Part shown: piece after piece, positions 27,617-58,385 of the stretch | Layout of the letters: each line of letters starts with the position of its first letter | Position numbering within the stretch: position 1 is the first letter of the stretch | Assembly: GCA_036517335.1 (NCBI GenBank) | Contig: DATDWX010000033.1 | Coordinates: 9-64,008, forward strand | Length of the DNA: 64,000 nucleotides | Direction: 5' to 3' | Source of the DNA: Minisyncoccota bacterium | GTDB lineage: Bacteria > Patescibacteriota > Minisyncoccia > Phycocordibacterales > UBA2100 | The notes under the pieces: model-generated | The model's input: the letters and a program-made list of their open reading frames with translations, nothing else | Told to the model about the DNA's origin: nothing | Databases searched by the model: none | Program-made: the position numbers and the translations under genes

Positions 27617-27991
27617 ATGGAACAAGATCAGACATTTCTGGAATACGTGGTCAAAGCGCTGGTAGACAACCCGGTGGATGTGAAGATCGTGCGCACGCTC
27701 GACGAGATGGGAGTCTTGCTCACACTCACGGTGCACAAAGATGACATGGGCAAGGTCATCGGCCGCTCGGGTGCCACCGCCAAGGCCATCCGCACCATCC
27801 TGCGCGTGGTGGGTATGAAGCACGATGCGCGTGTAAATCTCAAGATAGAAGAGCCGGAAGGCAGCGAGCCCCGTGAGGCTCGTAGTATGACCGGCGAGCG
27901 CACGAGCACCGTCACTATGGAAAGGCCACCACGCGCTGCCTCGCGCGATCGCTCGGTGGACGATGTCATTGATGAGTTGAAGACAGATTGA
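27617..27991 (+). CDS. KH-domain RNA-binding protein (YlqC/UPF0109-like) with a C-terminal extension
   Basis: VKIVRTLDEMGVLLTLTVHKDDMGKVIGRSGATAKAIRTIL. Conserved position between rpsP and trmD. Confidence 0.7.
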   Translation: MEQDQTFLEYVVKALVDNPVDVKIVRTLDEMGVLLTLTVHKDDMGKVIGRSGATAKAIRTILRVVGMKHDARVNLKIEEPEGSEPREARSMTGERTSTVTMERPPRAASRDRSVDDVIDELKTD

Positions 27992-28665: not shown

Positions 28666-28713
28666 TTCGATATGACAGCATAACTCGCACCTGCGTATAA
28701 AAGTGTCATATCG

Positions 28714-28763
28714 GCATCATGCGAAGATCGAGGAGTGGAAGAAAAAGAAACGCTCGAAATAAA
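28714..28763 (+). repeat. Near-identical duplicate of the trmD 3' end (HHAKIEEWKKK...*), 50 bp downstream of the real stop
   Basis: 28618-28665 versus 28714-28763. The intervening 48 bp carry a 9-bp terminal inverted repeat (gatatgaca/tgtcatatc). Confidence 0.6.
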
Positions 28764-36623: not shown

Positions 36624-36642
36624 GGTCTTATGGCCTGACGTA

Positions 36643-36673
36643 AATATTAGTGGTTTACGAAACCACTAATATT
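36643..36673. repeat. REP-like 31-bp palindrome AATATTAGTGGTTTACGAAACCACTAATATT overlapping the RAYT1 stop codon
   Basis: 14-bp perfect arms. Copy 1 of 3 of this family. Confidence 0.75.
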
Positions 36674-37328: not shown

Positions 37329-37337
37329 ACCATCATT

Positions 37338-37369
37338 ATATATTAGTGGTTTACGAAACCCCTAATATT
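37338..37369. repeat. REP-like palindrome ATATATTAGTGGTTTACGAAACCCCTAATATT immediately upstream of the RAYT1 start
   Basis: One mismatch relative to copy 1. Confidence 0.7.
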
Positions 37370-37518
37370 CGGGCGGGGTTGATTGTCGAACGCTGATCAT
37401 GCCCAAAGGGGCGACCCGTTCGCCCTTTTTGTTTTCCGGATGAGAGGAGCCCCACAGGGGAACTGCTGTTTGTATTCAATCGCTTCGCGCTCGGACAAAG
37501 AGGGAGCATAATGGGCGC

Positions 37519-39300: not shown

Positions 39301-39441
39301 AATGGTCCTTCACGCTCGATTCATCCGATTTTGAAATAAAAGGGGGTGTGAGGAGCGTATCATAGGCGTAAGCAGCCCTTCTCGAAGAGGGGGTTGCCGC
39401 TTTGTCTGTATTTTTTATTACATCCAGTCCCACCTCATAAT

Positions 39442-40767
39442 ATGGCAGCAAAAAAATCAAAGAAAACAGGCAAGCGCAAACAGGTGAGCCGCCCAAGGCG
39501 CGCGAAGCTTTCGAGGGTCAAGCCGCGCGCGCGGCGTCGCTCCAGCTCCGCACAAACGGCGATGCGCCGAAGGGCTGCCCGCGTGCGGGCTGCGCGTGCT
39601 TCACGTGTACGCGCTCCTTTACCCGCCAAAAAATCCACGGCGACCAAGCCCCTGCCGGGTGAGAGGATCTTCGGCGGAGAGGCAGGACAGCGCAAATACC
39701 AGACTAAAGTCGAGGGGCTCATCCGCCTCGGACGCGAACGCGGCTACGTGACCTATGATGAAATTCTTCGCGAATTTCCCACGATCGAGGAAAACGTTCT
39801 TTTGCTCGAAGAAATGTACGAGCGCTTCGGATCGGCGGGCATCGATGTCTTAGAAGGAGGGGGCATGCTCGGAGATACGACGGCCGACGAAATATTGGAG
39901 AAGAAAAAATTGCAGCACCGCCGCGCGGACGCTGGCTTCGATTCAGTGCAGATGTATCTGCGCGAGATCGGCCAGTACCCGCTCTTGAACGGCGATCAGG
40001 AAAAAACGCTCGCGAAGCGCATTGTGGAAGGTGATCAAGAAGCGCGCGGCATTCTCGCCCGCTCCAACCTTCGTCTGGTCGTATCGATCGCCAAGAAATA
40101 CGTGAATCGCTCGCCCGACCTCACACTCCTCGACCTCATTCAGGAGGGCAATCTCGGCCTTTTCAAGGCGGTGGACAAATTCGATTGGACCAAGGGCTAC
40201 AAATTCTCCACCTATGCGACTTGGTGGATCCGCCAAGCCATCACCCGCGCGCTGGCCGATCAGAGCCGCACCATCCGCATCCCCGTCCACATGGTCGAGA
40301 CCATCGCCAAGTACAAGCAAAAGGTGCGCGAGCTTTCCCAGCACCTGGGGCGCGACCCGCTGCCGGAGGAGATCGCGGCGGAAATGGGCATCGAGATCGA
40401 GAAGATCTACACCATCCAGAAGATCAACCAAGACACCGTGTCTCTCGAGAGCCCGGTGGGTGAAGACGACGACGAGCGCTCCACCTTGGGCAGCTTCATT
40501 GCCGACGACACCATCGCGAGCCCCGATATGGACGCTTCGCGCCGCATCCTCGGCGAGCAAATGATGGACATTCTCGAAGAGCTCTCACCGAAGGAGCGCA
40601 AGATACTCGAAATGCGCAATGGTCTCACCGACGACGGCGTCTGCTCCACCCTCGAAGAAGTAGGCCGAGAATTCGGCGTGACGCGCGAAAGAATTAGGCA
40701 AATTGAGGCAAAGGCGCTAGAGAGAATAAGGTTCCACGAACGCGCAAAACAGCTCCGGAGCTACTAA
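39442..40767 (+). CDS. rpoD: RNA polymerase sigma factor RpoD with a basic N-terminal extension
   Basis: Regions 1.2-4 ([44 protein letters not shown]). Confidence 0.9.
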
Positions 40768-40864
40768 TTTTAGAGTGTACGTACCGTTGGGAGTTAAGGT
40801 GAGATAGTGTATATTGCTGGGTATGGCTTGGTTTGGATACAAAAAGGATACAGAAACAGAAACA

Positions 40865-41149
40865 ATGCAGATGGCGGTAGACCTGCCAGTATCTTTTATT
40901 GAAGAGGGTAATTCTGTTATTGCCTACACGCCAGCCCTCGATCTGTCGACCTGCGGAAGCACTCATGAAGAAGCCAAACAAATGTTTGACGAAATAGTTA
41001 AAATTTTCTTTAAAGACTTAGTTGAGAACAATACAACTGATGAGGTGCTGTCTTCCTTGGGGTGGACCAAAAAGACCCAGACGGCAAACTGGATGCCGCC
41101 TAAAATTTCACAAGAATCTATCGGGGTCCAAGTTCCGATCCCTGCCTGA
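40865..41149 (+). CDS. hicB: HicB-like antitoxin (UPF0150 fold)
   Basis: VIAYTPALDLSTCGSTHEEAKQMFDEIVKIFF matches the HicB N-terminal domain pattern. Immediately followed by a HicA-like gene. Confidence 0.55.
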   Translation: MQMAVDLPVSFIEEGNSVIAYTPALDLSTCGSTHEEAKQMFDEIVKIFFKDLVENNTTDEVLSSLGWTKKTQTANWMPPKISQESIGVQVPIPA

Positions 41150-41157
41150 CTTCCCGT

Positions 41158-41391
41158 ATGAAGGGGGTCGGTAAGATAAGTTGGCAGAGGTTTGAAAAAT
41201 TTCTCCTCGCGATTGGTTGCGAACTTAAAAGCCAAGAAGCCAGTCATCGCAAATACAAAAAGGCCGGAATTCTAAGGCCGATCATTGTTCCATGCTACAA
41301 AGAAATTCCAGATTTTGTCATTCTTAATAATTTGAGAACGCTCGGGATCTCAAGGGAGTACTTTGAGAAAACGATTAAAAGTTTCCGCTAG
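41158..41391 (+). CDS. hicA: HicA-like mRNA interferase toxin (YcfA family)
   Basis: FEKFLLAIGCELKSQEASHRKYKK...IVPCYKEIPDFVILNNLRTLGISREYF matches the HicA family pattern. Confidence 0.6.
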   Translation: MKGVGKISWQRFEKFLLAIGCELKSQEASHRKYKKAGILRPIIVPCYKEIPDFVILNNLRTLGISREYFEKTIKSFR

Positions 41392-41460
41392 ACAAGAGAG
41401 AATTCTCGCACTCATCCGCCAGACCTGCCCCGTTAGAGGCGAATGCTCTCTAACGGAGTC

Positions 41461-41523
41461 GAAGCCAAAGCCCTCGAACGCATCCGCTTTCACGAACGTG
41501 CCAAGCAACTGCGGAGCTATTAA
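41461..41523 (+). repeat. Synonymously recoded duplicate of the last 20 codons plus stop of rpoD ([20 protein letters not shown])
   Basis: Identical peptide to 40705-40767, but almost every codon differs at the third position or in Arg codon choice. Preceded by the hairpin cgttagag..ctctaacg. Confidence 0.75.
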
Positions 41524-41528
41524 AAATG

Positions 41529-42548
41529 TTAGTGCACCCCTATATTAAAAAGAATATAAGTTACAGCCCCTGCGAGAACTACGTTGATAAAGGTGTTCAC
41601 ATAGGCAGTCAGATTTTGCCAGAAGTTTGATCGCTTGCTCACTGCAAAATCCAAAAGGCTTTTAACTGACGCAATCGGATAGTTTCTGAAATTGCGGCGC
41701 GCATTGTCGTTGTATTCCCGCAGATACTCTCGCGGAGGGTTATAAGTATCCTCAAACCGATCATTGATAAGGTGCGGCAACAACACAGAATCTGATTCAA
41801 ACTCAATCAACTGCTCCATAACTTCAGCAATGTGATCGTTCAGGATGAACCACTTAGCACTTTGTCCAGCGACGAGCAGATTTTTTTCCTCAATATTTGA
41901 CCACTTTTTAACTCGTGACGCCTCGATTTCGCGCATCATATAAAAGAGATTCAGCTCAGACCTGAGCTCTTCAAATATCTGATCCTTGATGTCGAGAAAT
42001 TTGAGCTTATCTACGAATACCTGAACGCGGTCATATCCAGATTGCTTCTCTATCTCCACACCAAAGAAATTGGTTGGGATTACGAAGAAGTCGGCGTGAA
42101 AAGGAGAGGGACCAATTACTTCCAATTCGAAATTACTTCGAAGGTATTTCCGAATGTATCCACGCACCTTTACAATTCCCGTGCTGGGATCTGCGGAGGT
42201 GGTGAGGGGAAAAACGAGCGTAACTGGCGTGTCGTATTCCGATTGGGTCCATAAACTGTACCGGGTATCCGATCCACGAAAATTATGATCAGAGCTCAGA
42301 TCAATATGAAATGAGAAATTCAAAAACCTGAGAGGATGTGTTCCTTCGAGAAGAGCTGGCGGTGCATCAAGATCAGCCTCTATGTGAAGGTTTGATAGAC
42401 CTGGTATATTCCTCAACGCTTCAGAAAGGTTGAGTATTTGTTCCTCCAAAGTTATTGGCACTGCAGATGTTATTTGAAAAAAGAACGAACCTATACCAAA
42501 TGAAAAATTAGTACCTACTGGCAAATTTTCTTTATTCACAAAGCGCAT
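41529..42548 (-). CDS. Hypothetical protein with a C-terminal TM; markedly AT-rich gene
   Basis: 339-aa ORF. Local GC is well below the window average. Convergent with hicA. Confidence 0.5.
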   Translation of the reverse strand: MRFVNKENLPVGTNFSFGIGSFFFQITSAVPITLEEQILNLSEALRNIPGLSNLHIEADLDAPPALLEGTHPLRFLNFSFHIDLSSDHNFRGSDTRYSLWTQSEYDTPVTLVFPLTTSADPSTGIVKVRGYIRKYLRSNFELEVIGPSPFHADFFVIPTNFFGVEIEKQSGYDRVQVFVDKLKFLDIKDQIFEELRSELNLFYMMREIEASRVKKWSNIEEKNLLVAGQSAKWFILNDHIAEVMEQLIEFESDSVLLPHLINDRFEDTYNPPREYLREYNDNARRNFRNYPIASVKSLLDFAVSKRSNFWQNLTAYVNTFINVVLAGAVTYILFNIGVH

Positions 42549-42615: not shown

Positions 42616-43074
42616 TCAGTGTTTCGACCTATTATTGTTGAGGAGGAATTTCCGAGTCCATTGCCAGCCGGAACGATGAGCGAGGTTTCGAGCCGCTAAG
42701 TTGACGAATAGACTGGTCGAACCGCTGAGCGCCGTTGGCGCAAAGCAGCTCCACAAGAATTCCGGTGTCCCATTCAGAAAGTGAGCGAGAGCAACGAAGA
42801 CGAGAGTCATTGCTGCAGGCACCGCGCTGCCCCAAAAATAGGCAGGAAGAGGCTTTTGTATCTTGCAGGAAATGAGCTGTGCGACACCTGCGGTCACTCC
42901 CGTTAGTAGAGCGGATACTGGTGCCTGCGATCCACCGGCCCGAAGGTATTCTATGATGCCGTGGTCCCAGTTGATCAGGGCAACCATAACTCCCTGGAAA
43001 ATGCCCGAGACCAAAGCAAGCTTCCAGTTAAAGACGTCGCGGCAGAAAGCCACGACGTTGCTGAGCAACTTCAT
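42616..43074 (-). CDS. Hypothetical 4-TM membrane protein
   Basis: ORF. A GGAGG RBS 6 nt upstream of the ATG on the minus strand. Confidence 0.45.
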   Translation of the reverse strand: MKLLSNVVAFCRDVFNWKLALVSGIFQGVMVALINWDHGIIEYLRAGGSQAPVSALLTGVTAGVAQLISCKIQKPLPAYFWGSAVPAAMTLVFVALAHFLNGTPEFLWSCFAPTALSGSTSLFVNLAARNLAHRSGWQWTRKFLLNNNRSKH

Positions 43075-43250
43075 GACTTCCTCCCAAAATGCGATTCGAG
43101 GAACAGGCCGACCGGAATCCTACACCCCGCCGCGGGCTTGTCCAAATACTTATGGTATTTGTTAATTCCCTTCTCCGCCAAGGCTACGAAAGGGCACGGC
43201 AAACGAATAAGCAAATACAGTTCATCAAAAACGAAGCGGCCGGTTCCTTT
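43075..43250 (-). promoter_or_regulatory. Conserved roughly 150-nt 5' leader (copy 1 of 2) upstream of the 42616-43074 gene
   Basis: Shares blocks (gtatttgcttatt..tgccg.gccctttc.tagcc..gcggagaa.ggaattaacaaatacca...tatttggac...ggtgtaggatt.cgg) with 43717-43995. Confidence 0.5.
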
Positions 43251-43287: not shown

Positions 43288-43716
43288 CTAGTCGGACGGA
43301 GCGGTTGGGTGTTGCGATGCCCAGCGATCGCAGACTGCGCAATAAATCACATCGCCTAGCACTTGGACACCCAGGGCTTCGAACTCAAGGATAAGGTGGC
43401 CGAGCTTCAGACTATCTGCGAGCACAACGCTGGGCTGAGCAGGATGCGCCGCGAGAGCTTTGGCGAGCTTCGCACAACCTTCCCGCATATACCCCGTATA
43501 CAGCTGGTATTCATCGGAGATGTACACCAACTGCAGAGACGGATGCTCTTGAATATAGCTGACTGCATCGTGAAAGAGCGTTCGGCAGCTGACAGTGGAG
43601 GACCACACGCCGGGCTCGGTGGTCTCCAAGCAGAAGTGAAGCATTCCTTCCAAATGGTGACGCCCCATACTGCTCGCCGCCACCATGAGGATGTGTGTGG
43701 CCTTCATCGGAGCCAT
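43288..43716 (-). CDS. Hypothetical small alpha/beta protein, paralogue A (DUF134/NifX-like or DsrE-like; unassigned)
   Basis: Start chosen at the ATG preceded by AGGAGG. Paralogous to the 44042-44434 gene (LVYISDEY...VVLADSLKLG versus FVFIGNEY...VVFANEGLHD). Confidence 0.4.
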   Translation of the reverse strand: MAPMKATHILMVAASSMGRHHLEGMLHFCLETTEPGVWSSTVSCRTLFHDAVSYIQEHPSLQLVYISDEYQLYTGYMREGCAKLAKALAAHPAQPSVVLADSLKLGHLILEFEALGVQVLGDVIYCAVCDRWASQHPTAPSD

Positions 43717-43995
43717 GAGGTTCCTCCTGAGAAGAGCGGACGTTCTCCAGCCGGAGCTATTCCGCCGCAATCCTACACCACGCCTCGAGTTTGCCAAGCC
43801 CCCGTAGCTCCGCCGGAGGCTGATGGTACCGGGGTCCAAATATTATTTTGGTATTTGTTAATTCCTTTCTCCGCCCGGGCTATGAAAGGGCGCGGCAATC
43901 AAATAAGCAAATACGGTTGGTCCAAAATCGGATTTTCAATTCTCTAATTCGCGCGAATAAGCGAATAGTTTGAAATGTCCAAAAATGAAGCGGTC
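43717..43995 (-). promoter_or_regulatory. Conserved 5' leader (copy 2) upstream of paralogue A, with a roughly 70-nt insertion relative to copy 1
   Basis: Blockwise similarity to 43075-43250 seen in the sequence. Confidence 0.5.
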
Positions 43996-44041: not shown

Positions 44042-44434
44042 TCATGCAGCGTGCCCGTCTTGCGCCCACCCAGCGACCACGACGAGTTCGGAGAGATTGC
44101 GAGCGACTTGCGCGCCTGCGAAGATCGGCGCGTAGAGGTCATGAAGTCCTTCGTTGGCGAACACGACCCGTGGATGCGGCCTGGCCCCCGCTACGGCTTT
44201 AGCGATACCTTGGCAAAACATTTCCATAATATGGGTGTCCACAACTCCATACTCGTTCCCGATGAATACGAAATGGAGGATTCCAGCTCCCTGTATCGCC
44301 GCAGGAGCGTTTGCAAGGTTCTTAAGGTGGTCTAGATCGGGCACCAAACCTTCTCGCAGCTCGACCGCCATCTTCAGAAGAACGGTGTCGCGCGTTTCTC
44401 GTCCCACGCCAATAAGCAAACCACGAACAACCAT
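44042..44434 (-). CDS. Hypothetical small alpha/beta protein, paralogue B
   Basis: Paralogous to 43288-43716. The start is uncertain. Confidence 0.35.
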   Translation of the reverse strand: MVVRGLLIGVGRETRDTVLLKMAVELREGLVPDLDHLKNLANAPAAIQGAGILHFVFIGNEYGVVDTHIMEMFCQGIAKAVAGARPHPRVVFANEGLHDLYAPIFAGAQVARNLSELVVVAGWAQDGHAA

Positions 44435-44569
44435 GTGACTCCCTCCGGAAGGACCGGCAGGACATCTCCCACCAGGCATCAACTCAACACATGCTACACC
44501 CGTTCCCGATTTGTCAAAACGAAGAGGCCGGTCCTCCGGGGGAGGGCCGGCTGCCTGGATGCTGCGAAT

Positions 44570-46183: not shown

Positions 46184-47038
46184 ATGGCGAGGAAAAAAAC
46201 GGCATTGCCCATAACCCACTGGAGCTACTCCTCGTTAATGTCTTATTTGCGCAATCCTTTGGCTTGGTACAAGCGCTACGTAGAGCACGTGTACGACACG
46301 CCTTCGTCGCCCGCGGGTATCATTGGCCGGGCGGGGCATGTGGCCTTGCAACATTTCTACAGCGGGATAGCGAAGGAGGGCGCGATTGATCTAGGATTGG
46401 AATATTTGCGCAGCGTGCCGGACTTTGAGATCAATTTTGGCAAGCTAAAGTCCCTGCCTGCCGGCAGGCAGGGTGCCGCGCAAAGGAGAAAGCGCCAGCT
46501 GATGGGACGCGAATACCTGCAGGCGGTCGCTTTCTACTTGGAGAAGCCGCCACGCTACGATGTCTTGGGCGTGGAGGTCAGGGCCGACGCACTAGTACAA
46601 GGATTGCCCCTGCCGATACGTGCGGTATCCGATCTCGTCGTGCGGTCAAAGGGGGAGCGGGATGCGCTTGATGTCGTAGATCACAAATTTGTGGATTCTT
46701 TCAGCGCGCTCGGCGCTGGCAAGACGCTCTTCGTCATCCAAGCCATCTTCAACTACTACACCGTCTCACAGATGTACGATAGACCTGTACGCCGCTTCAT
46801 TCTGCAGGAGTGCAAAAAAAGAAAAAACGCCGACGGCTCACCCCAAATGCGCAAATATGTAATCAACTTCGACGAACGAGCCGAAGATTTCGCCCTCTTC
46901 CACCGTTTAATCAAGGAAACAACGGCCGATCTCGCAAAGCGACAACACTTCCTCCCCAATCCATCTGATATGTTCGAAGGCGAGAATTCCTTTGATATTT
47001 ATCGGCTTGGATTGACTGGTAAAAATCACACGTTATAA
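46184..47038 (+). CDS. PD-(D/E)XK nuclease superfamily protein (RecB/Cas4-like N-terminus, no Cys cluster)
   Basis: N-terminal HWSYSSLMSYLRNPLAWYKRYV and a D...D-x-K-like motif (ALDVVDHKF). Confidence 0.5.
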   Translation: MARKKTALPITHWSYSSLMSYLRNPLAWYKRYVEHVYDTPSSPAGIIGRAGHVALQHFYSGIAKEGAIDLGLEYLRSVPDFEINFGKLKSLPAGRQGAAQRRKRQLMGREYLQAVAFYLEKPPRYDVLGVEVRADALVQGLPLPIRAVSDLVVRSKGERDALDVVDHKFVDSFSALGAGKTLFVIQAIFNYYTVSQMYDRPVRRFILQECKKRKNADGSPQMRKYVINFDERAEDFALFHRLIKETTADLAKRQHFLPNPSDMFEGENSFDIYRLGLTGKNHTL

Positions 47039-47151
47039 CGCGTACGGTAGCAAATTCGCTATCGCTTGAAAAAGGACGCTAGCTTTGCAAAGACGGGGAG
47101 GATATACTGCCAGCAGAATGAACCGGGAGTTTATTTATAATTTTATCTATC

Positions 47152-50100
47152 ATGCAAAGCTCAATACACACGAATGTCGGGCGCGTTTTTAGGGTCGGTT
47201 TTATTACTTTGATCATCCTTGCTGCAGTGGCTTTGGTGAGCGTTCCATCGGCGGACGCAGCCGTGGCGTACCGCGCTTCGGCCGCGACCTGCAACGCGAC
47301 AGCGAATACTTCCGTGAGCGTTCCTTCTGGCACGATAAACGGCGATGTGATGCTCATGGTCATCAATTCCAAAGACAATGCGGTGCAAGCCACATCTACC
47401 GGCTGGACACGGATCGGTACCCAGCTCAACAACGGCAGCTCGCTGACGACAAGCATCTTCTATCGCGTCGCAAGTAGCGAACCAGCGAGTTACTCGCCTG
47501 CCACGACGGCAGTGTCGCACTGTCTTAGCATCTCATCTTTTAGCGGCGCAGACGCGACTTCTCCCATCAATGCTTCAAGTCAGCGCGCCAACGCATCTTC
47601 TATCACTGTTACCGCAAATGCAATTACGCCAAGTATCGCCGATACACAAATAGTATTTATTTCCGGGTACGGAGACAACAGTACCCATAGCAGTTATAGC
47701 GGAACCAACCCCACCTTTACCGAGCGTTTTGATGTACGTACATCGCTGGGCACGGATAATGCCATTGCGCTTGCATCGGGCGCAAAAACAGACACGACGA
47801 GCACCGGCAACAGGACGGCGGTCGCCACGTCTCCTGCCGCAGTCAACAACGGCTACCTTATCGCCCTTGCGCCGGGAGCGCCCTCGACACTAAGCATCTC
47901 GGGCACCTGTAAGCAGCACGACAACATCACCAACTGTACCGACACGGGGACGGTGCGTGTGGCCGTTGACGGCGTCTTACAGGGGCAAACGCAAGCCACC
48001 GTCGCTGGCTCATGGACCATCTCGGGCGTGACCGCCTCTGCCGGTGCCGTGATTACGGTGTTTATCGACGGCGTCGCCTCGAGCGAAGAGCGCGCAGTAG
48101 CCGTCACCACGTATGTAGGCAGCGGTGACGTGGCAGGGCTCGAGCTCATCGAAGGAGCGCTCAGCCTCGGCAGCAGCGAAAACCGCACCCTCACTAATGC
48201 CAACATCGCGCAGTATGACAATTCGGTATCCGGAGATGCTGATATATTCGACGACGTAAATGCGGGCAACGACCTCACCGTCGATGCCAATAGCTCGATA
48301 ACCGGCGAATTGCTGTACGTAAAAAGCGGCAATACGTACCGCCCCGACAGCACGAGCTCCGGATTCATGACGACGCACGACCTCGAAAACCGAGGAACAC
48401 TTCAGACAGACGGTAATACCATTACGCTCGACGGCTCGTGGAAAAATAGCGGCACGTTTACGGCAAACACTTCGCTGGTCACGTTCAATTCTGCTGTCGG
48501 CGGAACAGTGAGCGGCACCTTAAGCGGCACGTCTGCGTTCAACAAAGTACTATTTGATGGCGGCGGCGCATGGACGATTCAAAATGCTATGAAAGTATCG
48601 GCTGCAAATGCTACTGACACATTTGTGATCAAAAACGGCACGACCACCATCGGCGATTCGAGTGGCGACAATTTGGAAGTAAATGGCAAACTCGTCATCG
48701 CAGGAACCGCCGGAGAAATGGGTACGTTGCAAACTGCGGCCCTCCCACAAGGTAGCACCATCACGATCGACCTCAACAACAACACATCTCCCGCTACATG
48801 CGCCAACTGCATCATTTCTGTCGGTGCTTCTTCTGGCGCTGGCGCTGGCAGCTTGAAGCTGAAGAAAAACACGATTTTGAGGCTCAATCCTCGATCGACG
48901 GCAACAGCATCAGATACCGGTGTCGAAGTACAGTCGACTGGGTATCTGGAGATCCTCGGCAGCCAGGAGGCCACCAACACGGTCGCCTCCCTTACACAAA
49001 ATACATCGGGCACCACGATCACCGTAGCCGGTACGCCGTTTTCTTCTGGCCAGTGGGACGGTATGGCGGTTCGCTTCACGTCTTCGAGCACGCCAAGCTT
49101 CGGCAAAATATACACGGCAACCAGCACGGCAAGCAGCAGTATCACCATCACCGCCGTGACTTCTCCCACCGATTCAGATGCACAGGTACGGGGCGCTGAC
49201 ACGGCCTGTGCAGGAAGCGGCAACTGCACGGTCGATGTTGCGGATACGCTTTTTAGTGCAACCGGTCAGTATGTCGGCAGCTATCTCCACAACATTACCG
49301 ACGACAAGTACTACCTCATAGCAAGTACGACCGAGGCGACCACCGACTCGGTACGCATCGTCAGCAACTCACCGGACGATTTTGCGACGATGAACGATGG
49401 TGACGATGTCGAGATTACCGACGGTATCCGCTCTGGTGATGCGTTCGAGGTCATTGACTACGCCCACGTTACCGCCGAGAGCGGTACCGCATGCACCTCA
49501 GCCATCAATCAGGGCGGTGAGGCGTACATCGCTGGAAAGGCGGGTTCAGAAACAGTGATTCGCTATGCCGATATGTGCAATCTCGGCAAGGGTGTCACAA
49601 GCAAGTTCGGACTTACCTTCGAGAGCGTGAATGGCGCGGGTGCAGGAGAAGGCGTCACGGTCGACGACTCGCGAATACGTAAGGGCATGCGCGGTATCGC
49701 GCTCATCAGTTCGTCGGGGAATAGCGGAGGGAAGGGTATAACCAACAACACTATCGAGAATAGTTTTGATTATGGCCTGCACCTCAACGCCAGTTCCAAT
49801 AATGCCATTTCGTCTAACCTCAGCTCCGATAACCTGGTCGGTATGCTCCTCGAGGCTAGCAGCAACAGCAATACGGTAGCAAGCAACAAGGTGTCTCGCA
49901 GCACCGCACACGGCGTCGCCCTCGTTACCTCTTCGGGTAACTCGGTTACGGATAACAGCATCTTCCACAATGGCACCGTCTACGAAAGTCACCACGGCCT
50001 CTTTTTGCTCGGTACTTCCAACAACAACGTACTTGATGGAAACAAGGTGTACGACAACATCACCTGGGGCGTCGCACTCTTCAACGGCGCATCAAACAAC

Positions 50101-51474
50101 ACCGTCTCCAACAACGACGCGCACAACAATCGCAAATCGGGCATTGTCATCGGAGAATATGACAACACGATTTTCAGCAACCAAAGCTTCAATAACGGCT
50201 ATCACGGCATGACACAAGTCTGCCCCAATGCTGACAACCTCAATACCATTCTCTTCAACAATTCGTTCTACCAGAACGATAAGCTCGGCCTCATGCTCGA
50301 GAGCGGTTTCGATTGTCTCGCTACCGTCATCCATGACAACTACGGCGGGCAGGGCGCCAACGCCGTAGCCGATCTCTGGATGGCCGCCGCAGGAGCGCCA
50401 ACACCGGGAGATCACAAGATGGTGCTGTACGACACGACGCTCGCCTCTCCGACCGAGTCCAACTTTACCGAGGTGGCGAACGTAAACGCGTACGCGATAT
50501 CAAAGAAGCACGACGGGGCAAGCGGCGCTACGCAAATCTGGGGTAAGTACGCGGTACCGGCAAATGATTCCGAAACGCCGCAAAATGAAAGCATCGCAGC
50601 GTACAATTATGCAAACAATCTCTGGGAGAAGAGCGCATCGCCCCACGGCTACGCGGGTACGGGAACCGAAGACAGCAATCTCAACTACGATCTCTCTACT
50701 GCAACGCTCTCTGGAGGTCCCTACCACTACCGAGCCACAGTCAAGACCGCCGGCAGTGCAAACTGCGCGACCGCAGCCGAGTTTGACGTATATCGCAACA
50801 ATGTAGACGTGGGCGATGCTACGTGCGGCAGCACCTTTACCGACGCCACGACCGGGGTATCGTTCAAGATCGACGGCGGAGCGACCGGGTACGCAGTCGG
50901 CGATTCGTACACGTTTACCGCATGGGACGCTTCAGGCGACAGCAGCACACAAAAGACCGTGACCATGATGCAGGATAAGGACACCTTCACCACTCCTGTG
51001 TCCACAACACTAGAACTGAAAGGTGAATCTGCCAGCCTCAATCCTACACTCATTACTCGCGGCGGCACCGGCGGGTACCAGTTTGCAATTAACGGTACGC
51101 TCGATGCCGATAGCTACCAATTCGACTACCTCGGCGGTACCGGGCAGAGCGCCGGACTGCTCCTCAACAGCGGCTCGACGATTGCCTCGCTCGATAACGG
51201 CAGCTTCGACAACTTCGGGGTAGGCAGCGGCAGCGCCGATGCCTTTGTCCAAGTGGCCAGCTCGCTCATCGGCTCGAGTACGCCCGCCCTCCTTATCTCT
51301 GGCACAAACTTCGCAAATTCCGGCTCAAATGCGGAGTGTAACCTCAATGCAAGTGGGTCAGCAGCGGGCTACTGGGAATTCCAGAGCTTCACGGGAGCGT
51401 TCGCGGGAGAGAACTTCGATTGTCAAAACGGCTCAGCCGATTCCGACCCGGGCAACTTCGTCTGGACACCGTAG
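47152..51474 (+). CDS. Giant secreted/anchored right-handed beta-helix (PbH1 repeat) surface protein, 1440 aa
   Basis: Signal/TM at the N-terminus. Numerous N-x-[IV]-x-x-N parallel beta-helix repeats (NNTIENSFDYGLHLNASSNNAISSN...). Confidence 0.7.
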   Translation: MQSSIHTNVGRVFRVGFITLIILAAVALVSVPSADAAVAYRASAATCNATANTSVSVPSGTINGDVMLMVINSKDNAVQATSTGWTRIGTQLNNGSSLTTSIFYRVASSEPASYSPATTAVSHCLSISSFSGADATSPINASSQRANASSITVTANAITPSIADTQIVFISGYGDNSTHSSYSGTNPTFTERFDVRTSLGTDNAIALASGAKTDTTSTGNRTAVATSPAAVNNGYLIALAPGAPSTLSISGTCKQHDNITNCTDTGTVRVAVDGVLQGQTQATVAGSWTISGVTASAGAVITVFIDGVASSEERAVAVTTYVGSGDVAGLELIEGALSLGSSENRTLTNANIAQYDNSVSGDADIFDDVNAGNDLTVDANSSITGELLYVKSGNTYRPDSTSSGFMTTHDLENRGTLQTDGNTITLDGSWKNSGTFTANTSLVTFNSAVGGTVSGTLSGTSAFNKVLFDGGGAWTIQNAMKVSAANATDTFVIKNGTTTIGDSSGDNLEVNGKLVIAGTAGEMGTLQTAALPQGSTITIDLNNNTSPATCANCIISVGASSGAGAGSLKLKKNTILRLNPRSTATASDTGVEVQSTGYLEILGSQEATNTVASLTQNTSGTTITVAGTPFSSGQWDGMAVRFTSSSTPSFGKIYTATSTASSSITITAVTSPTDSDAQVRGADTACAGSGNCTVDVADTLFSATGQYVGSYLHNITDDKYYLIASTTEATTDSVRIVSNSPDDFATMNDGDDVEITDGIRSGDAFEVIDYAHVTAESGTACTSAINQGGEAYIAGKAGSETVIRYADMCNLGKGVTSKFGLTFESVNGAGAGEGVTVDDSRIRKGMRGIALISSSGNSGGKGITNNTIENSFDYGLHLNASSNNAISSNLSSDNLVGMLLEASSNSNTVASNKVSRSTAHGVALVTSSGNSVTDNSIFHNGTVYESHHGLFLLGTSNNNVLDGNKVYDNITWGVALFNGASNNTVSNNDAHNNRKSGIVIGEYDNTIFSNQSFNNGYHGMTQVCPNADNLNTILFNNSFYQNDKLGLMLESGFDCLATVIHDNYGGQGANAVADLWMAAAGAPTPGDHKMVLYDTTLASPTESNFTEVANVNAYAISKKHDGASGATQIWGKYAVPANDSETPQNESIAAYNYANNLWEKSASPHGYAGTGTEDSNLNYDLSTATLSGGPYHYRATVKTAGSANCATAAEFDVYRNNVDVGDATCGSTFTDATTGVSFKIDGGATGYAVGDSYTFTAWDASGDSSTQKTVTMMQDKDTFTTPVSTTLELKGESASLNPTLITRGGTGGYQFAINGTLDADSYQFDYLGGTGQSAGLLLNSGSTIASLDNGSFDNFGVGSGSADAFVQVASSLIGSSTPALLISGTNFANSGSNAECNLNASGSAAGYWEFQSFTGAFAGENFDCQNGSADSDPGNFVWTP

Positions 51475-51616
51475 AAAGACCCTGAGGTTTGAAAAGACGC
51501 AGCAACTCATTTCCGCGAACCCTCGAAAATGGAGGGTAGATACGTAGAATGGAACTGGAGCCCACGACACTCGACAATTGTCTTCTTCACTTTCTTTACT
51601 GCGTTCGCACCTTTAG

Positions 51617-51673
51617 CAGGTCACACCACTTCCTCCCCAACCCGTCAGATATGTTCGAAGGAGAGAACAGTTT
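51617..51673 (+). repeat. Synonymously recoded duplicate of the PD-(D/E)XK nuclease 3' end (HFLPNPSDMFEGENSFDI*)
   Basis: Same peptide as 46946-46999 with synonymous substitutions (tcc to agt Ser, ttt to ttc, gat to gac, and others). Lies 4.6 kb downstream, after the giant gene and immediately before REP-B/RAYT2. Confidence 0.7.
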
Positions 51674-51707
51674 CGACATTTAACGTCTTGGGTTATTGGA
51701 AAAATAA

Positions 51708-51744
51708 TGAAAGACATCGGATGTTGGACATCCGATGTCTTTCA
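51708..51744. repeat. REP-like palindrome TGAAAGACATCGGATG-ttgga-CATCCGATGTCTTTCA upstream of RAYT2
   Basis: 16-bp perfect arms. Shares the GACATCCGATGTC core with 52426-52452. Confidence 0.7.
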
Positions 51745-51759
51745 TGGTATCATTGGGGT

Positions 51760-52422
51760 ATGGATCTGTACCACATTTGCAATCGGGGTGTCGATAAGCG
51801 AGAGGTGTTTCTTGATGATGGCGATCGCACACGATTCGTTCATGACCTGTATGTAATGAACGATGTGCATTCGGTGCCGAATCACGGCCGTCATGAGCTA
51901 GGCAACATATCAGATGCAGGACACGAACGAGAGCCACTTGTTCATTTGTACGCATGGTGTCTCATGCCCAACCATTACCACCTACTCCTGTCCCCGGTCG
52001 ACGATGAGCCCGCGAATCTGTCTTTGTTTGCGCAGAAAGTGGGCATGGGCTACTCGAAGTTTTTCAATAAAAAATACAAACGATCCGGTGCCCTTTGGCA
52101 GGGGAAACATAAAAAGGTGCATATACAACGAGACGCTCATTTCCTCTATATTCCGTTCTATATCCATCTTAATCCTCTCGACCTATCGATTCCGGAATGG
52201 CGTCACGGGCGGGTGAAGGATGTGGACAAGGCCTTGGAACAACTAAGCGGCTATCGCTGGAGCAGTTTTCTCGACTATACTGGAGTAAAAAATTTCCCGT
52301 CCCTTATCGACAAACCTCTGCTTACAGATATGCTCGGTTCGCGCAAGAAACAAAGCAAGATAATAGCGGATATCATCGGCGACGGAATATTGGCAAATTC
52401 CAGCTGGGCATTAGAGATGTAG
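51760..52422 (+). CDS. REP-associated tyrosine transposase (RAYT) / IS200-like HUH-Y1 transposase, copy 2
   Basis: AWCLMPNHYHLLL (HUH) and FYIHLNPLD (Y1). 220 aa, a paralogue of 36666-37328. Confidence 0.8.
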   Translation: MDLYHICNRGVDKREVFLDDGDRTRFVHDLYVMNDVHSVPNHGRHELGNISDAGHEREPLVHLYAWCLMPNHYHLLLSPVDDEPANLSLFAQKVGMGYSKFFNKKYKRSGALWQGKHKKVHIQRDAHFLYIPFYIHLNPLDLSIPEWRHGRVKDVDKALEQLSGYRWSSFLDYTGVKNFPSLIDKPLLTDMLGSRKKQSKIIADIIGDGILANSSWALEM

Positions 52423-52425
52423 AAC

Positions 52426-52452
52426 AATGAGGGACATCCGATGTCCTTCATT
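52426..52452. repeat. REP-like palindrome AATGAGGGACATCCGATGTCCTTCATT immediately downstream of RAYT2
   Basis: 13-bp arms with one mismatch. Confidence 0.65.
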
Positions 52453-52464
52453 GGTAAAGGATTG

Positions 52465-52792: not shown

Positions 52793-53296
52793 TTACCGAG
52801 CGCGGACTTTGAGTTTGGTCTGCCGAGCCTTATTGATCTTTGGCAGGCGGATCATGAGGATGCCGTGCTTTTCACTAGCTTCGGCCAGGTCCACGTCTAC
52901 TTCTTCGGGGAGGAGGATGGTGCGGGAAAATGAGCCCCAGTAGAGCTCCTTTTGATAGTAGTTGTCTTCCTCGACTTCTTTTTCATCCTGCCTTGTGCCC
53001 GATACGGTCAGCGTCTCACGCGTGAGAGAAATGTCTACAGAATTTGGCTGCACGCCAGCAATGAGCGCTTTCACCACGATGGCGTCCGGCGTCTGGTATA
53101 CGTCTACCGCTAATTCCCCAGCCACATCATCACCCGCTTCCTTCGGCCAGCTTTCGCCCTTGGTACTGATATGCGCGTGGCGCTCGCCGCCTGCCCCATG
53201 GAAAACGGCCGGCGTGCCAGCTGCAAAAGTGTCATCGGAATAATCATCATCGCTACCGCCCGCGAGCCTTGAGAAAAAAGATTGTTTTTTCACCAT
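52793..53296 (-). CDS. Small heat-shock protein (Hsp20/alpha-crystallin family)
   Basis: Alpha-crystallin domain (LAVDVYQTPDAIVVKALIAGV...SFSRTILLPEEVDVDLAEASEKHGILMIRLPK). Confidence 0.75.
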   Translation of the reverse strand: MVKKQSFFSRLAGGSDDDYSDDTFAAGTPAVFHGAGGERHAHISTKGESWPKEAGDDVAGELAVDVYQTPDAIVVKALIAGVQPNSVDISLTRETLTVSGTRQDEKEVEEDNYYQKELYWGSFSRTILLPEEVDVDLAEASEKHGILMIRLPKINKARQTKLKVRAR

Positions 53297-53327
53297 ATAT
53301 TCGTTTCCATTATACACTAGCTACACA

Positions 53328-57182: not shown

Positions 57183-58385
57183 TTACACGTTTGCCAGCCT
57201 TAAATTCCCACTGGCGCGAAGAGATGCCGGATCGGCGAATTCTTTTTTGAGAGCGTGGAAATAGCCGGCTAGCGCGATCATGAGGGCGTTGTCGGTGGCC
57301 CATTCGGGTGCGGGGATGAGGAGTTGGACATCCTGTTCATCGAGTGCTTCTTTGAGCCGTTGTTTGATATGCGTGTTGGCCGAGACGCCGCCGCCAACTA
57401 AGACCGTTTGTGCGCCATGTTCCTCCACGGCTCGCAGGGTTTTCGCGACGAGCACGTCGGCGGCGGCGTCTTCAAATTCGCGCGCGATTTCTATTTTCTT
57501 TGCATACGTGAGCGTTCGACCGCCGATCACATTGCGCACTGCTGTTTTCAATCCCGAGAATGAAAAGTCGTAAGATTCATCCTTCATCATCGGCCGCGGC
57601 AATTCAAGAGGCGACACCTCTTGAATCTGACGCGAGCGAGAGGCAAGCCGTGCGATCTCCGGCCCGCCAGGATAGGGAAGTCCCATCATCCGCGCAATTT
57701 TATCAAACGCTTCGCCCACCGCATCGTCGCGCGTCTCACCAATCGTTTTAAACTTTGGCCATTCAGTAATCAAATCCAATTCCGTGTGCCCACCCGAGAT
57801 GAGTAGCGCAATGGCGGGGAATCCGGACTCGTCGATTCTTAATCCCGATACTTCGTTATATAACGAAGTATCGGGATTTGAGACTATCGCCATGGCAATA
57901 TGACCCTCCAGGTGGTTCACAGGTACGATCGGAATATTCCATACTGCGCTCAGCGCTTTTGCAAAATTTACCCCGACCCACAGCGCGGGCTCAAGGCCGG
58001 GGCCGTGCGTCACCGCGATCGCATCAATATCAGGCCTCCCATGTGTTTTTAAAAATTCTTCGAGCGCCTGAAAAAGTTCCGGTTCTCGCACCAGCAATTC
58101 CCGGATGTTCAAGGACCGTCCTTGAACCAATTGGATCAAGGACGGTCCTTGAACAGCTTGAGCGGACTGTGCGAGTACTTCACTTAGAAGCGGGACGAGA
58201 TTTTTTGCATGCTCGCGCTTGGCGAGATTGGGAAAGATGCCGCCGTAGGGGGCATGAGTCGCGATTTGTGAGTGGAGTGCGTTGCCCAGCACTTGAAATT
58301 TGAACGATGCGCCAAATGATCCTTCGGCCTCGATCAAACAAACAGCGGTTTCATCGCACGAGGTCTCTATCCCTAAAATCTTCAT
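57183..58385 (-). CDS. tsaD: tRNA N6-adenosine threonylcarbamoyltransferase TsaD (400 aa, about 55 aa longer than typical)
   Basis: MKILGIETSCDETAV, HLEGHI, GGVSAN. Carries two in-frame palindromic insertions. Confidence 0.85.
   Translation of the reverse strand: MKILGIETSCDETAVCLIEAEGSFGASFKFQVLGNALHSQIATHAPYGGIFPNLAKREHAKNLVPLLSEVLAQSAQAVQGPSLIQLVQGRSLNIRELLVREPELFQALEEFLKTHGRPDIDAIAVTHGPGLEPALWVGVNFAKALSAVWNIPIVPVNHLEGHIAMAIVSNPDTSLYNEVSGLRIDESGFPAIALLISGGHTELDLITEWPKFKTIGETRDDAVGEAFDKIARMMGLPYPGGPEIARLASRSRQIQEVSPLELPRPMMKDESYDFSFSGLKTAVRNVIGGRTLTYAKKIEIAREFEDAAADVLVAKTLRAVEEHGAQTVLVGGGVSANTHIKQRLKEALDEQDVQLLIPAPEWATDNALMIALAGYFHALKKEFADPASLRASGNLRLANV
57602..57626. repeat. Palindrome ATTCAAGAGGCGACACCTCTTGAAT in frame in tsaD (encodes QIQEVSPLE on the minus strand)
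   Basis: 10-bp arms. Same family and phase as the gyrB and rnhB copies. Confidence 0.75.
58107..58154. repeat. 48-bp compound palindrome GTTCAAGGACCGTCCTTGAAC-CAATTG-GATCAAGGACGGTCCTTGAAC in frame in tsaD
   Basis: Two 21-bp palindromes in inverted orientation around CAATTG. Encodes VQGPSLIQLVQGRSLNI. Confidence 0.75.

What the first reader, a model, noticed from the sequence alone, without database searches (positions are those of the whole stretch)
46946..51673. Recoded duplicate of a PD-(D/E)XK nuclease gene terminus flanking the 4.3-kb giant beta-helix protein gene, next to RAYT2
HFLPNPSDMFEGENSFDI is encoded at the end of the nuclease gene (46946-46999) and again at 51617-51673. The second copy carries only synonymous changes (tcc to agt Ser, ttt to ttc, gat to gac, and others) and an earlier stop. 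The 1440-aa PbH1 surface-protein gene lies in between. The signature matches the rpoD case, which suggests a recurrent mechanism delivering cargo into gene 3' ends, or cassette exchange by homologous recombination at conserved termini.
Basis: partly seen in the sequence, partly recalled or inferred. Interest (0 to 1): 0.7.

Follow-up and report, generated by a model that had tools for sequence, protein, structure and literature searches.

The report
Displaced old gene end marking DNA gain
A leftover copy of the last ~27 codons of a conserved nuclease gene sits behind a giant surface-protein gene because incoming DNA from a related bacterium brought its own gene end plus cargo and pushed the original end downstream; the same scar recurs at several conserved genes in this group of tiny uncultivated (CPR) bacteria.

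Summary
The duplication is real, but copy 2 lies at 51627-51680, not 51617-51673. The DNA repeat is 46942-47024 versus 51623-51704 (79.5% identity, E 4e-12). All nine codon differences are synonymous. Copy 2 has TAT>TAA, and homology continues past it to a second stop at 51705-51707. No nuclease homology lies further upstream.

Copy 2 is a vestige of the resident 3' end: its tail and stop are identical to the gene end of the closest relative. The functional end and 32 nt after it match another lineage (L007). They carry the flanks of a "130-aa gene" cassette, in which the giant gene has replaced the ORF.

The scar is recurrent in Paceibacterota:
- Nuclease: three other genomes.
- rpoD: this window and four others.
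- rpoC: two genomes. trmD: this window. HSP20: three genomes.
- About 12 3'-end cases versus no 5'-end cases in 2 Mb.

Cargo is toxin-antitoxin pairs, RAYTs and membrane proteins, never an integrase. Joints vary in position and share no motif.

Best explanation: one homologous crossover in the conserved gene plus one illegitimate joint (HFIR-like "C-terminal displacement", proposed for Rhs and T6SS loci). RAYT2 is a resident neighbour, not the agent. This is a new variant of a known kind, of moderate interest.

The parts
46184..47038 (+). Functional PD-(D/E)XK nuclease gene (284 aa). It is a conserved core gene of Paceibacterota/Kaiserbacteria.
   Evidence: Pfam PF12705, E 2.4e-12. 2254 homologues were found, and the top 120 are 66-82% identical.
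46897..47038 (+). 3' tract of the nuclease gene with 'A-type' (L007-like) affinity. This is the incoming replacement terminus.
   Evidence: Informative sites switch from 69 A / 67 B to 28 A / 7 B at about 46895; max-chi2 permutation p = 0.044. The tail TGKNHTL resembles P0003's TERDNMI.
46942..47024 (+). Repeat copy 1, inside the functional gene.
   Evidence: blastn against 51623-51704, 79.5% identity over 83 nt, E 4e-12.
47045..47076 (+). Remnant 5' flank of the '130-aa gene' cassette that follows the nuclease gene in other lineages.
   Evidence: 94% identical to L007 1309-1340. The same motif precedes the 130-aa gene in L180.
47080..47151 (+). The giant gene's own upstream region, which travelled with the gene.
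   Evidence: Aligns with the upstream regions of giant-gene homologues at other loci, L171 and L172.
47152..51474 (+). Giant 1440-aa NosD/right-handed beta-helix surface protein gene. It is the cargo now occupying the cassette slot.
   Evidence: Pfam PF05048 and PF13229. Homologues 80-84% identical lie at unrelated loci (sigma70-family - giant - NAD_binding).
51532..51556 (+). Remnant 3' flank of the 130-aa gene cassette (GGAGGGTAGATACGTAGAATGGAAC).
   Evidence: Matches the sequence after the 130-aa gene in L007 (18 of 21 nt) and in L180.
51557..51622 (+). Spacer of unknown origin on the donor side of the joint. No coding or nuclease homology was found.
   Evidence: No blastn or tblastn match in 184 loci. 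The family HMM scores negative and DNA alignment is no better than shuffles.
51623..51707 (+). Vestigial resident ('B-type') 3' end of the nuclease gene: the last ~27 codons, with an inactivating TAT>TAA at 51681-51683 and the original stop at 51705-51707.
   Evidence: Profile match to HMM positions 247-276 of 277, E 9e-14. The tail GGGTTATTGGAAAAATAA is identical to the gene end of closest relatives L001/L002/L003/L090.
51707..51745 (.). Left REP-type hairpin of the resident RAYT2 unit. It abuts the vestige and is not part of the insertion.
   Evidence: Inverted repeat. The same hairpins flank the orthologous RAYT in L001/2/3, L089, L090 and L093.
51760..52422 (+). RAYT2, a Y1 (IS200-like) transposase-family gene. 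It is a resident neighbour.
   Evidence: Pfam PF01797, weak. 89% identical to the RAYT at the same locus in L001 and 72% to that in L093.
52793..53317 (-). HSP20 gene, the convergent neighbour that directly abuts the nuclease gene in relative L004.
   Evidence: Pfam PF00011. Synteny nuclease -> <- HSP20-PrsW-ValRS.
39394..40767 (+). rpoD. Its last ~300 nt are of different affinity from the body (the parallel case).
   Evidence: Pfam sigma-70 regions. Breakpoint at about 40460-40480, p < 0.001 and p = 0.003. From codon 100 to 431 there are 26 Arg codons, all CGN (24 CGC). Four AGA/AGG codons then follow at codons 433-446.
40823..41391 (+). HicB-like plus HicA toxin-antitoxin cargo behind rpoD.
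   Evidence: HicA is PF07927, E 2.3e-7, above the cutoff. HicB is inferred from position only, with no Pfam hit.
41430..41456 (+). Conserved hairpin at the 3' end of the hicBA cargo, immediately before the rpoD vestige.
   Evidence: Exact matches occur in L064, L161, L164 and L174. L180 carries a compensatory A-U>G-C change.
41458..41523 (+). Vestigial resident rpoD 3' end (21 codons plus stop).
   Evidence: 20 of 21 aa identical. It is closer to L001's rpoD end than the functional end is.
28714..28762 (+). Vestigial 3' end of trmD (27988-28665), 49 nt behind the real stop. A 10-bp inverted repeat lies in between (28668-28677 / 28704-28713).
   Evidence: blastn 28621-28664 versus 28715-28761, 85% identity. 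tblastn match of 13 aa. Sequence. trmD is PF01746.

Best explanation
The second copy is a scar of horizontal gene gain by '3'-terminal displacement'.

Inferred history:
- The ancestor had nuclease(B-type end) -> REP-RAYT2-REP -> <- HSP20.
- DNA from a diverged Paceibacterota lineage entered. It carried the 3' part of its own nuclease gene (A-type end) and the downstream '130-aa gene' cassette.
- Its left side recombined homologously within the conserved nuclease gene, at about 46895.
- Its right end was joined illegitimately to the resident chromosome inside the last ~27 codons of the resident gene, at about 51609-51626.
- The gene therefore now ends in the imported terminus. The resident terminus was pushed downstream, lost selection and acquired TAT>TAA.
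- The differences look 'recoded' (synonymous only) because both termini evolved under purifying selection in separate genomes before the event.
- Later the 130-aa ORF in the slot was replaced by the giant beta-helix gene, together with that gene's own upstream region.

Inferred selection filter:
- Only products that keep both flanking conserved genes intact survive.
- Only products with short, diverged repeats resist pop-out by recombination.
- This would give short 3' vestiges.

Shown: the anatomy, the polarity, the recurrence and the absence of an integrase or a joint motif. Inferred: the recombination mechanism, DNA uptake by natural transformation, and the order of events.
For: Polarity:
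- The vestige tail plus stop is identical to the closest relative's real gene end.
- The functional end plus 32 nt downstream matches L007.
- The rpoD case has the same polarity.

Left crossover upstream of the repeat:
- Nuclease switch at about 46895, p = 0.044.
- rpoD switch about 240 nt upstream of its repeat, p <= 0.003, with a codon-usage switch.

Illegitimate right joints:
- In L144, a truncated HSP20 3' end lies back-to-back with the truncated nuclease 3' end.
- In L093, a truncated HSP20 3' end and the truncated nuclease 3' end flank the RAYT unit.
- L180-183 carry a truncated HSP20 3' end downstream of the 130-aa cassette.

No site-specific signature:
- Vestige lengths vary: 22-37 codons for the nuclease and 17-29 for rpoD.
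- Joints share no motif.
- None of the cargoes holds an integrase.

Recurrence: about 12 3'-end cases in 2.0 Mb.

The synonymous-only pattern, with a near-intact vestige, excludes slow divergence after a local duplication (inference).

The same mechanism has been proposed for T6SS effector-immunity arrays and Rhs loci (PMC5361080; PMC2935791).
Against: - The nuclease breakpoint is only marginally significant, and the proxies are about 80% identical. The breakpoints could also reflect separate, later recombination.
- A purely mechanistic HFIR model predicts 5'-end vestiges too, yet none was found in 2516 ORFs. The 3' bias has to be explained by selection, which is untested.
- All vestiges are short (11-41 codons), which also needs the untested repeat-instability argument.
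- In L029 the two copies are 63/64 identical. This fits a target duplication or a very close donor better than a diverged donor.
- No donor sequence spanning the right joint is available, so microhomology could not be checked.
- Natural competence of these organisms was not examined here.
Confidence: 0.55

Rival explanations
1. Campbell-type integration of a circular intermediate by RecA. A circle carrying a short copy of the conserved 3' end plus cargo integrates by a single homologous crossover inside the conserved terminus. Such a circle could be excised earlier by recombination between such repeats. Integration duplicates the terminus. This is the model proposed for Rhs C-terminal displacement.
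For: - It explains the duplication, the polarity, the short repeat length (equal to the homology carried by the circle) and the 3' restriction once such cassettes exist.
- The near-identical 64-nt repeats in L029 fit it.
- Precedent: PMC2935791.
- The serial vestiges in L161/L164 resemble Rhs tip arrays.
Against: - The foreign tract starts upstream of the repeat in rpoD (about 240 nt) and probably in the nuclease gene (about 45 nt).
- The truncated HSP20 end abutting the nuclease vestige in L144, and the truncated gene ends flanking the RAYT unit in L093, require an illegitimate event anyway.
- Natural transformation delivers linear single strands (own knowledge).
- No circle was observed.
Confidence: 0.2
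2. Site-specific integration. Integrase-borne elements, or integrase-less cis-mobilisable cassettes served in trans, target the conserved 3' end and carry a surrogate terminus, as genomic islands do at tRNA and protein-gene 3' ends. The present cargos would be decayed remnants.
For: - The strict 3'-end bias: about 12 cases versus none.
- Direct repeats flank the cargo and a surrogate end restores the gene.
- The window and L029 repeats start within a codon of each other, at the F of FLPNPSD.
- The targets are highly conserved sequences.
Against: - No integrase occurs in any of about 11 cargoes, most of which are only 0.7-1.4 kb.
- Repeat boundaries differ among events (22, 27, 37 codons for the nuclease; 17, 21, 29 for rpoD).
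- Joints share no motif or inverted repeats.
- At least five different genes are targeted.
- Donor-side ends are arbitrary gene fragments (HSP20 remnants).
- The foreign tract extends upstream of the repeat.
Confidence: 0.15
3. RAYT/REP-mediated event. The neighbouring Y1 transposase, or its REP hairpins, generated the duplication or delivered the cargo.
For: - RAYT2 with its hairpin abuts the vestige.
- RAYTs lie within or next to the cargo in L093, L126 and L180.
Against: - RAYT2 is an orthologous resident of this gap in relatives without any duplication, e.g. L001 at 89% identity and L089.
- L029, L144 and the window rpoD and trmD cases have no RAYT at the joint.
- Y1 (IS200/IS605-type) transposition makes no target duplication (own knowledge).
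Confidence: 0.04
4. Local origin: the remnant of a tandem paralogue or an old target-site duplication that diverged in place. Alternatively, an assembly chimera.
For: The orientation is direct and the copies lie close to the parent gene.
Against: - No homology lies upstream of the last ~30 codons.
- In-place divergence would load the unselected copy with missense changes. Instead there are nine synonymous differences, no missense and one nonsense change.
- The two tails match two different lineages.
- Seven independently assembled contigs carry the identical nuclease followed by the giant gene. The two that extend far enough also contain the vestige.
Confidence: 0.03

Closest known systems
C-terminal displacement at Rhs / polymorphic-toxin loci (Jackson et al. 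2009, PMC2935791) and sequential displacement of T6SS effector-immunity modules in Vibrio (Kirchberger et al. 2017, PMC5361080)
   Same: - Incoming DNA recombines in a conserved part of a gene.
- It supplies a new 3' end plus downstream genes.
- It shunts the old 3' end downstream as a silent fragment that begins with a short piece of the conserved region.
- Serial events leave strings of fragments, as in L161/L164.
- No dedicated recombinase is known.
- HFIR or homologous recombination with circles has been proposed.
   Different: - In those loci the displaced tips are variable toxin domains, and the point of the exchange is a new C-terminus.
- Here the C-terminus is invariant at the protein level (housekeeping nuclease, rpoD, rpoC, trmD, HSP20).
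- Here only the downstream cargo changes, the vestiges are 11-41 codons long, and the hosts are CPR bacteria.
Homology-facilitated illegitimate recombination (HFIR) during natural transformation (Acinetobacter, Streptococcus, Pseudomonas; cited in PMC5361080)
   Same: - One homologous anchor plus one illegitimate joint.
- Foreign DNA is added next to a conserved gene.
- Donor ends are arbitrary.
   Different: - Experimental HFIR usually deletes recipient DNA next to the anchor rather than duplicating part of it.
- Neither transformation nor microhomology at the joints could be shown here.
Integrative elements / genomic islands that insert into the 3' ends of tRNA or conserved protein genes and carry a surrogate 3' end, including integrase-less CIME-type derivatives
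   Same: - Direct repeats of a gene 3' end flank the cargo.
- The functional end is element-derived and the native end is displaced.
- The bias to 3' ends is strong.
   Different: - There is no integrase and no conserved att core.
- Boundaries vary.
- Cargoes are often a single TA pair.
- Recombinant tracts extend upstream of the repeat.

Membership tests
C-terminal (3'-terminal) displacement scars | An intact gene is followed, on the same strand, by a promoterless fragment that repeats only its 3' end. | tested here: met
   46942-47024 versus 51623-51704. No upstream homology.
C-terminal (3'-terminal) displacement scars | The attached end is the incoming one and the dissociated fragment is the former resident end. 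| tested here: met
   The vestige tail plus stop equals the closest relative's gene end, and the functional end plus flank equals that of another lineage. The rpoD case behaves the same way.
C-terminal (3'-terminal) displacement scars | Recurrence and serial arrays at the same gene in different genomes. | tested here: met
   Nuclease in 4 genomes, rpoD in 5 and rpoC in 2. L161/L164 carry two successive rpoD vestiges.
C-terminal (3'-terminal) displacement scars | The exchanged C-terminal part is variable (toxin tip), as in Rhs/CdiA/T6SS. | tested here: not met
   The C-terminal peptide LPNPSDMFEGENSFDIYRLGL is nearly invariant in 120 homologues. Only the downstream cargo varies.
HFIR product | A homologous crossover within the shared gene, so that the recombinant tract begins inside the conserved gene. 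| tested here: inconclusive
   Breakpoints lie at about 46895 (p = 0.044) and about 40460-40480 (p <= 0.003). The proxies are distant, and later independent recombination is not excluded.
HFIR product | A second joint that is illegitimate, at microhomology, with an arbitrary donor end. | tested here: inconclusive
   Arbitrary truncated gene ends occur at the joints in L093, L144 and L180. Microhomology cannot be tested without the donor sequence.
Site-specific integrative element (island / CIME) | A recombinase gene in the element, or in related copies of it. | tested here: not met
   No integrase domain or integrase-sized ORF occurs in any cargo.
Site-specific integrative element (island / CIME) | A fixed crossover position with a conserved core and arm sequences at the joints. 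| tested here: not met
   Joint positions differ between events and no motif is shared.
REP/RAYT unit (for RAYT2 itself) | A Y1 transposase-family gene flanked by its own palindromic REP hairpins, single copy, syntenic in relatives. | tested here: met
   PF01797, weak. Hairpins at 51707-45 and 52425-53. Orthologue 89% identical at the same locus in L001.

The most novel reading that the evidence does not exclude
Paceibacterota (CPR) might possess a dedicated cassette-insertion process that specifically targets the invariant 3' termini of essential genes. It could depend on a trans-acting recombinase or be independent of any recombinase. It would always supply a surrogate terminus, giving a strictly 3'-polar 'gene-end docking' system for TA modules, RAYTs and surface proteins. 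This would be distinct from integrons, tRNA-targeting islands and random HFIR.
Probability: 0.12. Interest if true: 0.8.

Novelty: new variant of a known kind. Interest (0 to 1): 0.5.

Why it matters
CPR/Patescibacteria have tiny, compact genomes with few recognisable mobile elements. How they gain accessory genes such as defence or addiction modules and giant surface proteins is poorly understood.

These scars give a readable, directional record of gene gain next to conserved genes. They show which end is imported, where the crossover lay, and the order of successive events.

They suggest that recombination anchored in conserved gene termini, probably on DNA taken up from relatives, is a routine route of genome flexibility in this group.

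They also warn annotators that short conserved gene-end fragments in these genomes are scars, not genes.

If the strict 3' polarity turns out to be mechanistic rather than selective, it would point to an undescribed insertion system.

Tried and rejected
- Further nuclease homology upstream of copy 2. tblastn suggested a weak extension to 51573. The family HMM scores it negative and DNA alignment is no better than shuffles. Rejected.
- tRNA or known RNA at the site. ARAGORN and Rfam found nothing in the whole window.
- Donor arrangement 'nuclease followed by giant gene'. Giant homologues at 80-84% identity sit at other loci, so no such donor was found.
- Empty-site or strain variants. All 7 contigs with the identical nuclease carry the giant gene.
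- Origin of spacer 51557-51622. No DNA or six-frame protein match in 184 loci.
- The rpoD hairpin as a dispersed recombination site. It occurs only at the rpoD site, with one match in the window. It is interpreted as the 3' hairpin of the hicBA cargo.
- Compositional foreignness of the giant gene. GC is normal at 0.558 versus 0.544. Its tetranucleotide profile is the least typical in the window (r = 0.70 versus 0.88 +/- 0.06). That can come from its Ser/Thr/Gly/Asn-rich repeats and is not evidence of foreign origin.
- Literature searches for the same phenomenon at housekeeping genes in CPR found no direct precedent. One search failed on syntax.
- Using the 5' edge of copy 2 (the CAC codon) to separate the Campbell model from HFIR. 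It is not diagnostic, because HFLP also occurs in other lineages.
Full report
**1. Observation**

The window is essentially one 64-kb contig of a Candidatus Paceibacterota (CPR) bacterium.

- The PD-(D/E)XK nuclease gene is 46184-47038 (PF12705).
- HFLPNPSDMFEGENSFDI is encoded at 46946-46999 and again at 51627-51680.
- Nine codons differ and all nine differences are synonymous.
- At the DNA level the repeat is 46942-47024 versus 51623-51704: 79.5% identity over 83 nt, E 4e-12.
- The 'earlier stop' is a TAT>TAA change at 51681-51683. Behind it the homology continues (RLGL..K) to a second stop at 51705-51707.
- The 1440-aa NosD/beta-helix gene (47152-51474) lies in between.
- A profile built from 118 homologues matches only HMM positions 247-276 of 277 (window 51609-51698, E 9e-14).
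- The piece upstream scores negative, and a DNA alignment of it against the gene body is no better than shuffles.
- Seven independently assembled contigs carry the identical nuclease followed by the giant gene. The two that extend far enough also contain the vestige.

**2. Which copy is which**

The peptide LPNPSDMFEGENSFDIYRLGL is nearly invariant in 120 homologues, whereas the few residues after it vary.

- Copy 2 ends ...RLGLLEK-TAA. Its last 18 nt (GGGTTATTGGAAAAATAA) are identical to the real gene end of the closest long-contig relatives, L001/L002/L003/L090 (P0006, 81% identical).
- The functional end (…YRLGLTGKNHTL) and the 32 nt behind it (47045-47076) instead match L007 (P0003) at 94%.
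- Copy 2 is therefore the former resident ('B-type') terminus, and the attached terminus is imported ('A-type').
- The vestige has no missense change but nine synonymous differences. The two ends must therefore have diverged under purifying selection in different genomes.
- The displacement is recent relative to that divergence (inference).

**3. Synteny**

- In L004 the nuclease gene directly abuts the convergent HSP20-PrsW-ValRS block.
- In L001/L002 two genes lie in between, and in L089 a small gene lies in between. The nuclease/HSP20 gap is thus a variable hotspot.
- The gene with REP hairpins next to the vestige (RAYT2, 51760-52422) is 89% identical to the RAYT in the same gap of L001. 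It also occurs there in L089, L090 and L093.
- RAYT2 is a resident, not part of the insertion.

**4. What was inserted**

- Giant-gene homologues at 80-84% identity sit at unrelated loci (sigma70-family - giant - NAD_binding). They share about 70 nt of their upstream region with window 47080-47151.
- The flanks outside that region belong to a '130-aa gene' cassette that follows the nuclease gene in L007 and L180-183. These flanks are 47045-47076 on the left and 51532-51556 on the right.
- The imported haplotype was therefore nuclease(A)-130-aa cassette. The giant gene later replaced the 130-aa ORF, or had already done so in the donor.
- The 66 nt between the cassette remnant and the vestige (51557-51622) match nothing.
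- GC content of the giant gene is ordinary. Its tetranucleotide profile is the least typical in the window, but the protein's biased composition can explain that.

**5. Recurrence**

I scanned 168 related loci plus the window (2.0 Mb, 2516 ORFs of at least 150 aa). The scan looked for same-strand downstream copies of each ORF's last 45 aa.

| Gene | Locus | Cargo or detail |
|---|---|---|
| Nuclease | window | giant beta-helix gene |
| Nuclease | L029 | HepT/MNT toxin-antitoxin; repeats 63/64 identical |
| Nuclease | L093 | HSP20 remnant plus REP-RAYT-REP; 37-codon vestige |
| Nuclease | L144 | membrane protein |
| rpoD | window | HicB-like/HicA |
| rpoD | L063 | two small genes |
| rpoD | L064 | no cargo, only a 44-nt hairpin segment |
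| rpoD | L161/L164 | two serial vestiges |
| rpoD | L180 (found later) | RAYT plus HicBA |
| rpoC | L156 | BrnT/CopG-like pair |
| rpoC | L126 | membrane protein plus RAYT |
| trmD | window | 49-nt insert with a 10-bp inverted repeat |

- Truncated HSP20 3' ends occur in L093, L144 and L180-183.
- Cargo identities rest on Pfam.
- The mirror-image control (first 80 aa, searched upstream) gave no genuine 5'-end duplicate.
- No cargo contains an integrase.
- Joint positions vary: nuclease 22, 22-24, 27 and 37 codons; rpoD 17, 21 and 29 codons.
- The joints share no motif.

**6. Mechanism**

Three observations favour one homologous crossover plus one illegitimate joint.

(a) The recombinant tract starts upstream of the repeat.
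- In rpoD the informative sites switch from L001-like (151:49) to L064-like (34:23) at about 40460. That is about 240 nt before the repeat (p < 0.001; p = 0.003 with L180).
- From codon 100 to 431 there are 26 Arg codons, all CGN (24 of them CGC). Four AGA/AGG codons then follow at codons 433-446.
- In the nuclease gene the switch is at about 46895, giving 28:7 on the right (p = 0.044).

(b) The donor side of several joints is an arbitrary fragment.
- In L144 an 11-13-codon HSP20 3' remnant abuts the truncated nuclease 3' end, broken side to broken side.
- In L093 a 28-codon HSP20 remnant and the truncated nuclease 3' end flank the RAYT unit.
- This is the outcome of a staggered illegitimate crossover between two haplotypes of the convergent nuclease/HSP20 junction.

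(c) There is no recombinase and no att-like core.

This corresponds to homology-facilitated illegitimate recombination. HFIR has been proposed for the sequential displacement of T6SS effector-immunity modules (PMC5361080). It also resembles Rhs 'C-terminal displacement', for which a circular intermediate and homologous recombination were proposed (PMC2935791).

I infer that selection and repeat instability shape what is seen:
- Products must keep both flanking conserved genes intact in a genome with almost no intergenic space.
- Long repeats would recombine and delete the cargo.
- Only short 3' vestiges would therefore persist.

Open points:
- The strict 3' polarity and the uniformly short vestiges are explained only by this untested argument.
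- The near-identical repeats in L029 fit a Campbell-type or target-duplicating event better.
- A circle/homologous-recombination model (0.20) and a site-specific model (0.15) therefore remain alive.
- RAYT involvement, a local paralogue and an assembly artefact are effectively excluded.

**7. Comparison and novelty**

- Functionally this works like Rhs/T6SS C-terminal displacement and like the surrogate-end logic of 3'-targeting genomic islands.
- It fails the defining features of site-specific elements (recombinase, fixed core).
- It differs from Rhs-type displacement because the displaced terminus is protein-invariant and belongs to housekeeping genes. The variable part is only the downstream cargo.
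- Two full-text searches found no description of this at housekeeping genes in CPR bacteria.
- I rate it a new variant of a known kind. It is of moderate interest as a recurrent, directional record of accessory-gene gain in CPR genomes.

Noticed in passing
window 27988-28762: A third 3'-end duplicate in the window. trmD (PF01746) ends at 28665. Then come 49 nt containing a 10-bp inverted repeat (28668-28677 / 28704-28713). Then comes a second copy of the last ~15 codons (28714-28762, HHAKIEEWKKKKRSK*). No cargo gene lies in between.
   Followed up: partly
window 41413-41457; L064 8765-8807; L161 3444-3486; L180 ~2680-2712: A 43-nt segment with a 9-bp-stem hairpin (CCGTTAGAG..CTCTAACGG) always precedes the 21-codon rpoD vestige. 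L180 carries a compensatory A-U>G-C change in the stem, which suggests a selected hairpin. It is probably the 3' end of the hicBA transcript. In L064 and L161 the hicBA genes are gone but the hairpin remains.
   Followed up: partly
window 36641-36674, 36666-37328 (-), 37337-37370; 51707-51745, 51760-52422 (+), 52425-52453: There are two RAYT paralogues, 48.5% identical. Each is flanked by its own, different REP-type hairpin (ATATTAGTGGTTTACGAAACCACTAATAT versus GACATCCGATGTC). Both sit in variable gaps behind conserved genes.
   Followed up: partly
window 7268-7292, 22020-22044, 57602-57629: A third palindromic repeat family (ATTCAAGAGGCGAC/TGCCTCTTGAAT) is present three times in the window without an adjacent RAYT. 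Further long palindromes lie at 57841-57878, 58106-58155 and 18846-18882.
   Followed up: no
window 62716-63074 vs 63331-63689: A 359-nt direct repeat at 85% identity lies near the end of the window. It looks like a tandem paralogous or repeated coding segment. It was not analysed.
   Followed up: no
window 43140-43231 vs 43834-43927: A 92-nt direct repeat at 84% identity lies in the gaps between three small minus-strand ORFs (42616-43074, 43288-43839, 44042-44482; no Pfam hits). It suggests a tandem array of related small genes with a repeated upstream or downstream region.
   Followed up: no
L093 1169-1252 and 2057-2164; L144 11548-11651; L180 8481-8546: Truncated HSP20 3' ends (11-28 codons) are the mirror-image scars on the other side of the nuclease/HSP20 gap. 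In L144 the HSP20 remnant directly abuts the truncated nuclease 3' end, broken side to broken side. In L093 the two remnants flank the REP-RAYT-REP unit.
   Followed up: yes
window 47152-51474: The giant beta-helix gene has the least typical tetranucleotide profile of any 4.3-kb segment in the window (r = 0.70 versus a mean of 0.88), although its GC content is normal. The next most atypical segment is 40-45 kb (hicBA and the unannotated 339-aa gene 41529-42548).
   Followed up: partly
window 51529-52422: The mechanical 297-aa ORF that runs through the vestige into RAYT2 is an artefact of ORF extension. Orthologues in L093 and L001 show that RAYT2 starts at the ATG at 51760 (MDLYHICNRG).
   Followed up: yes
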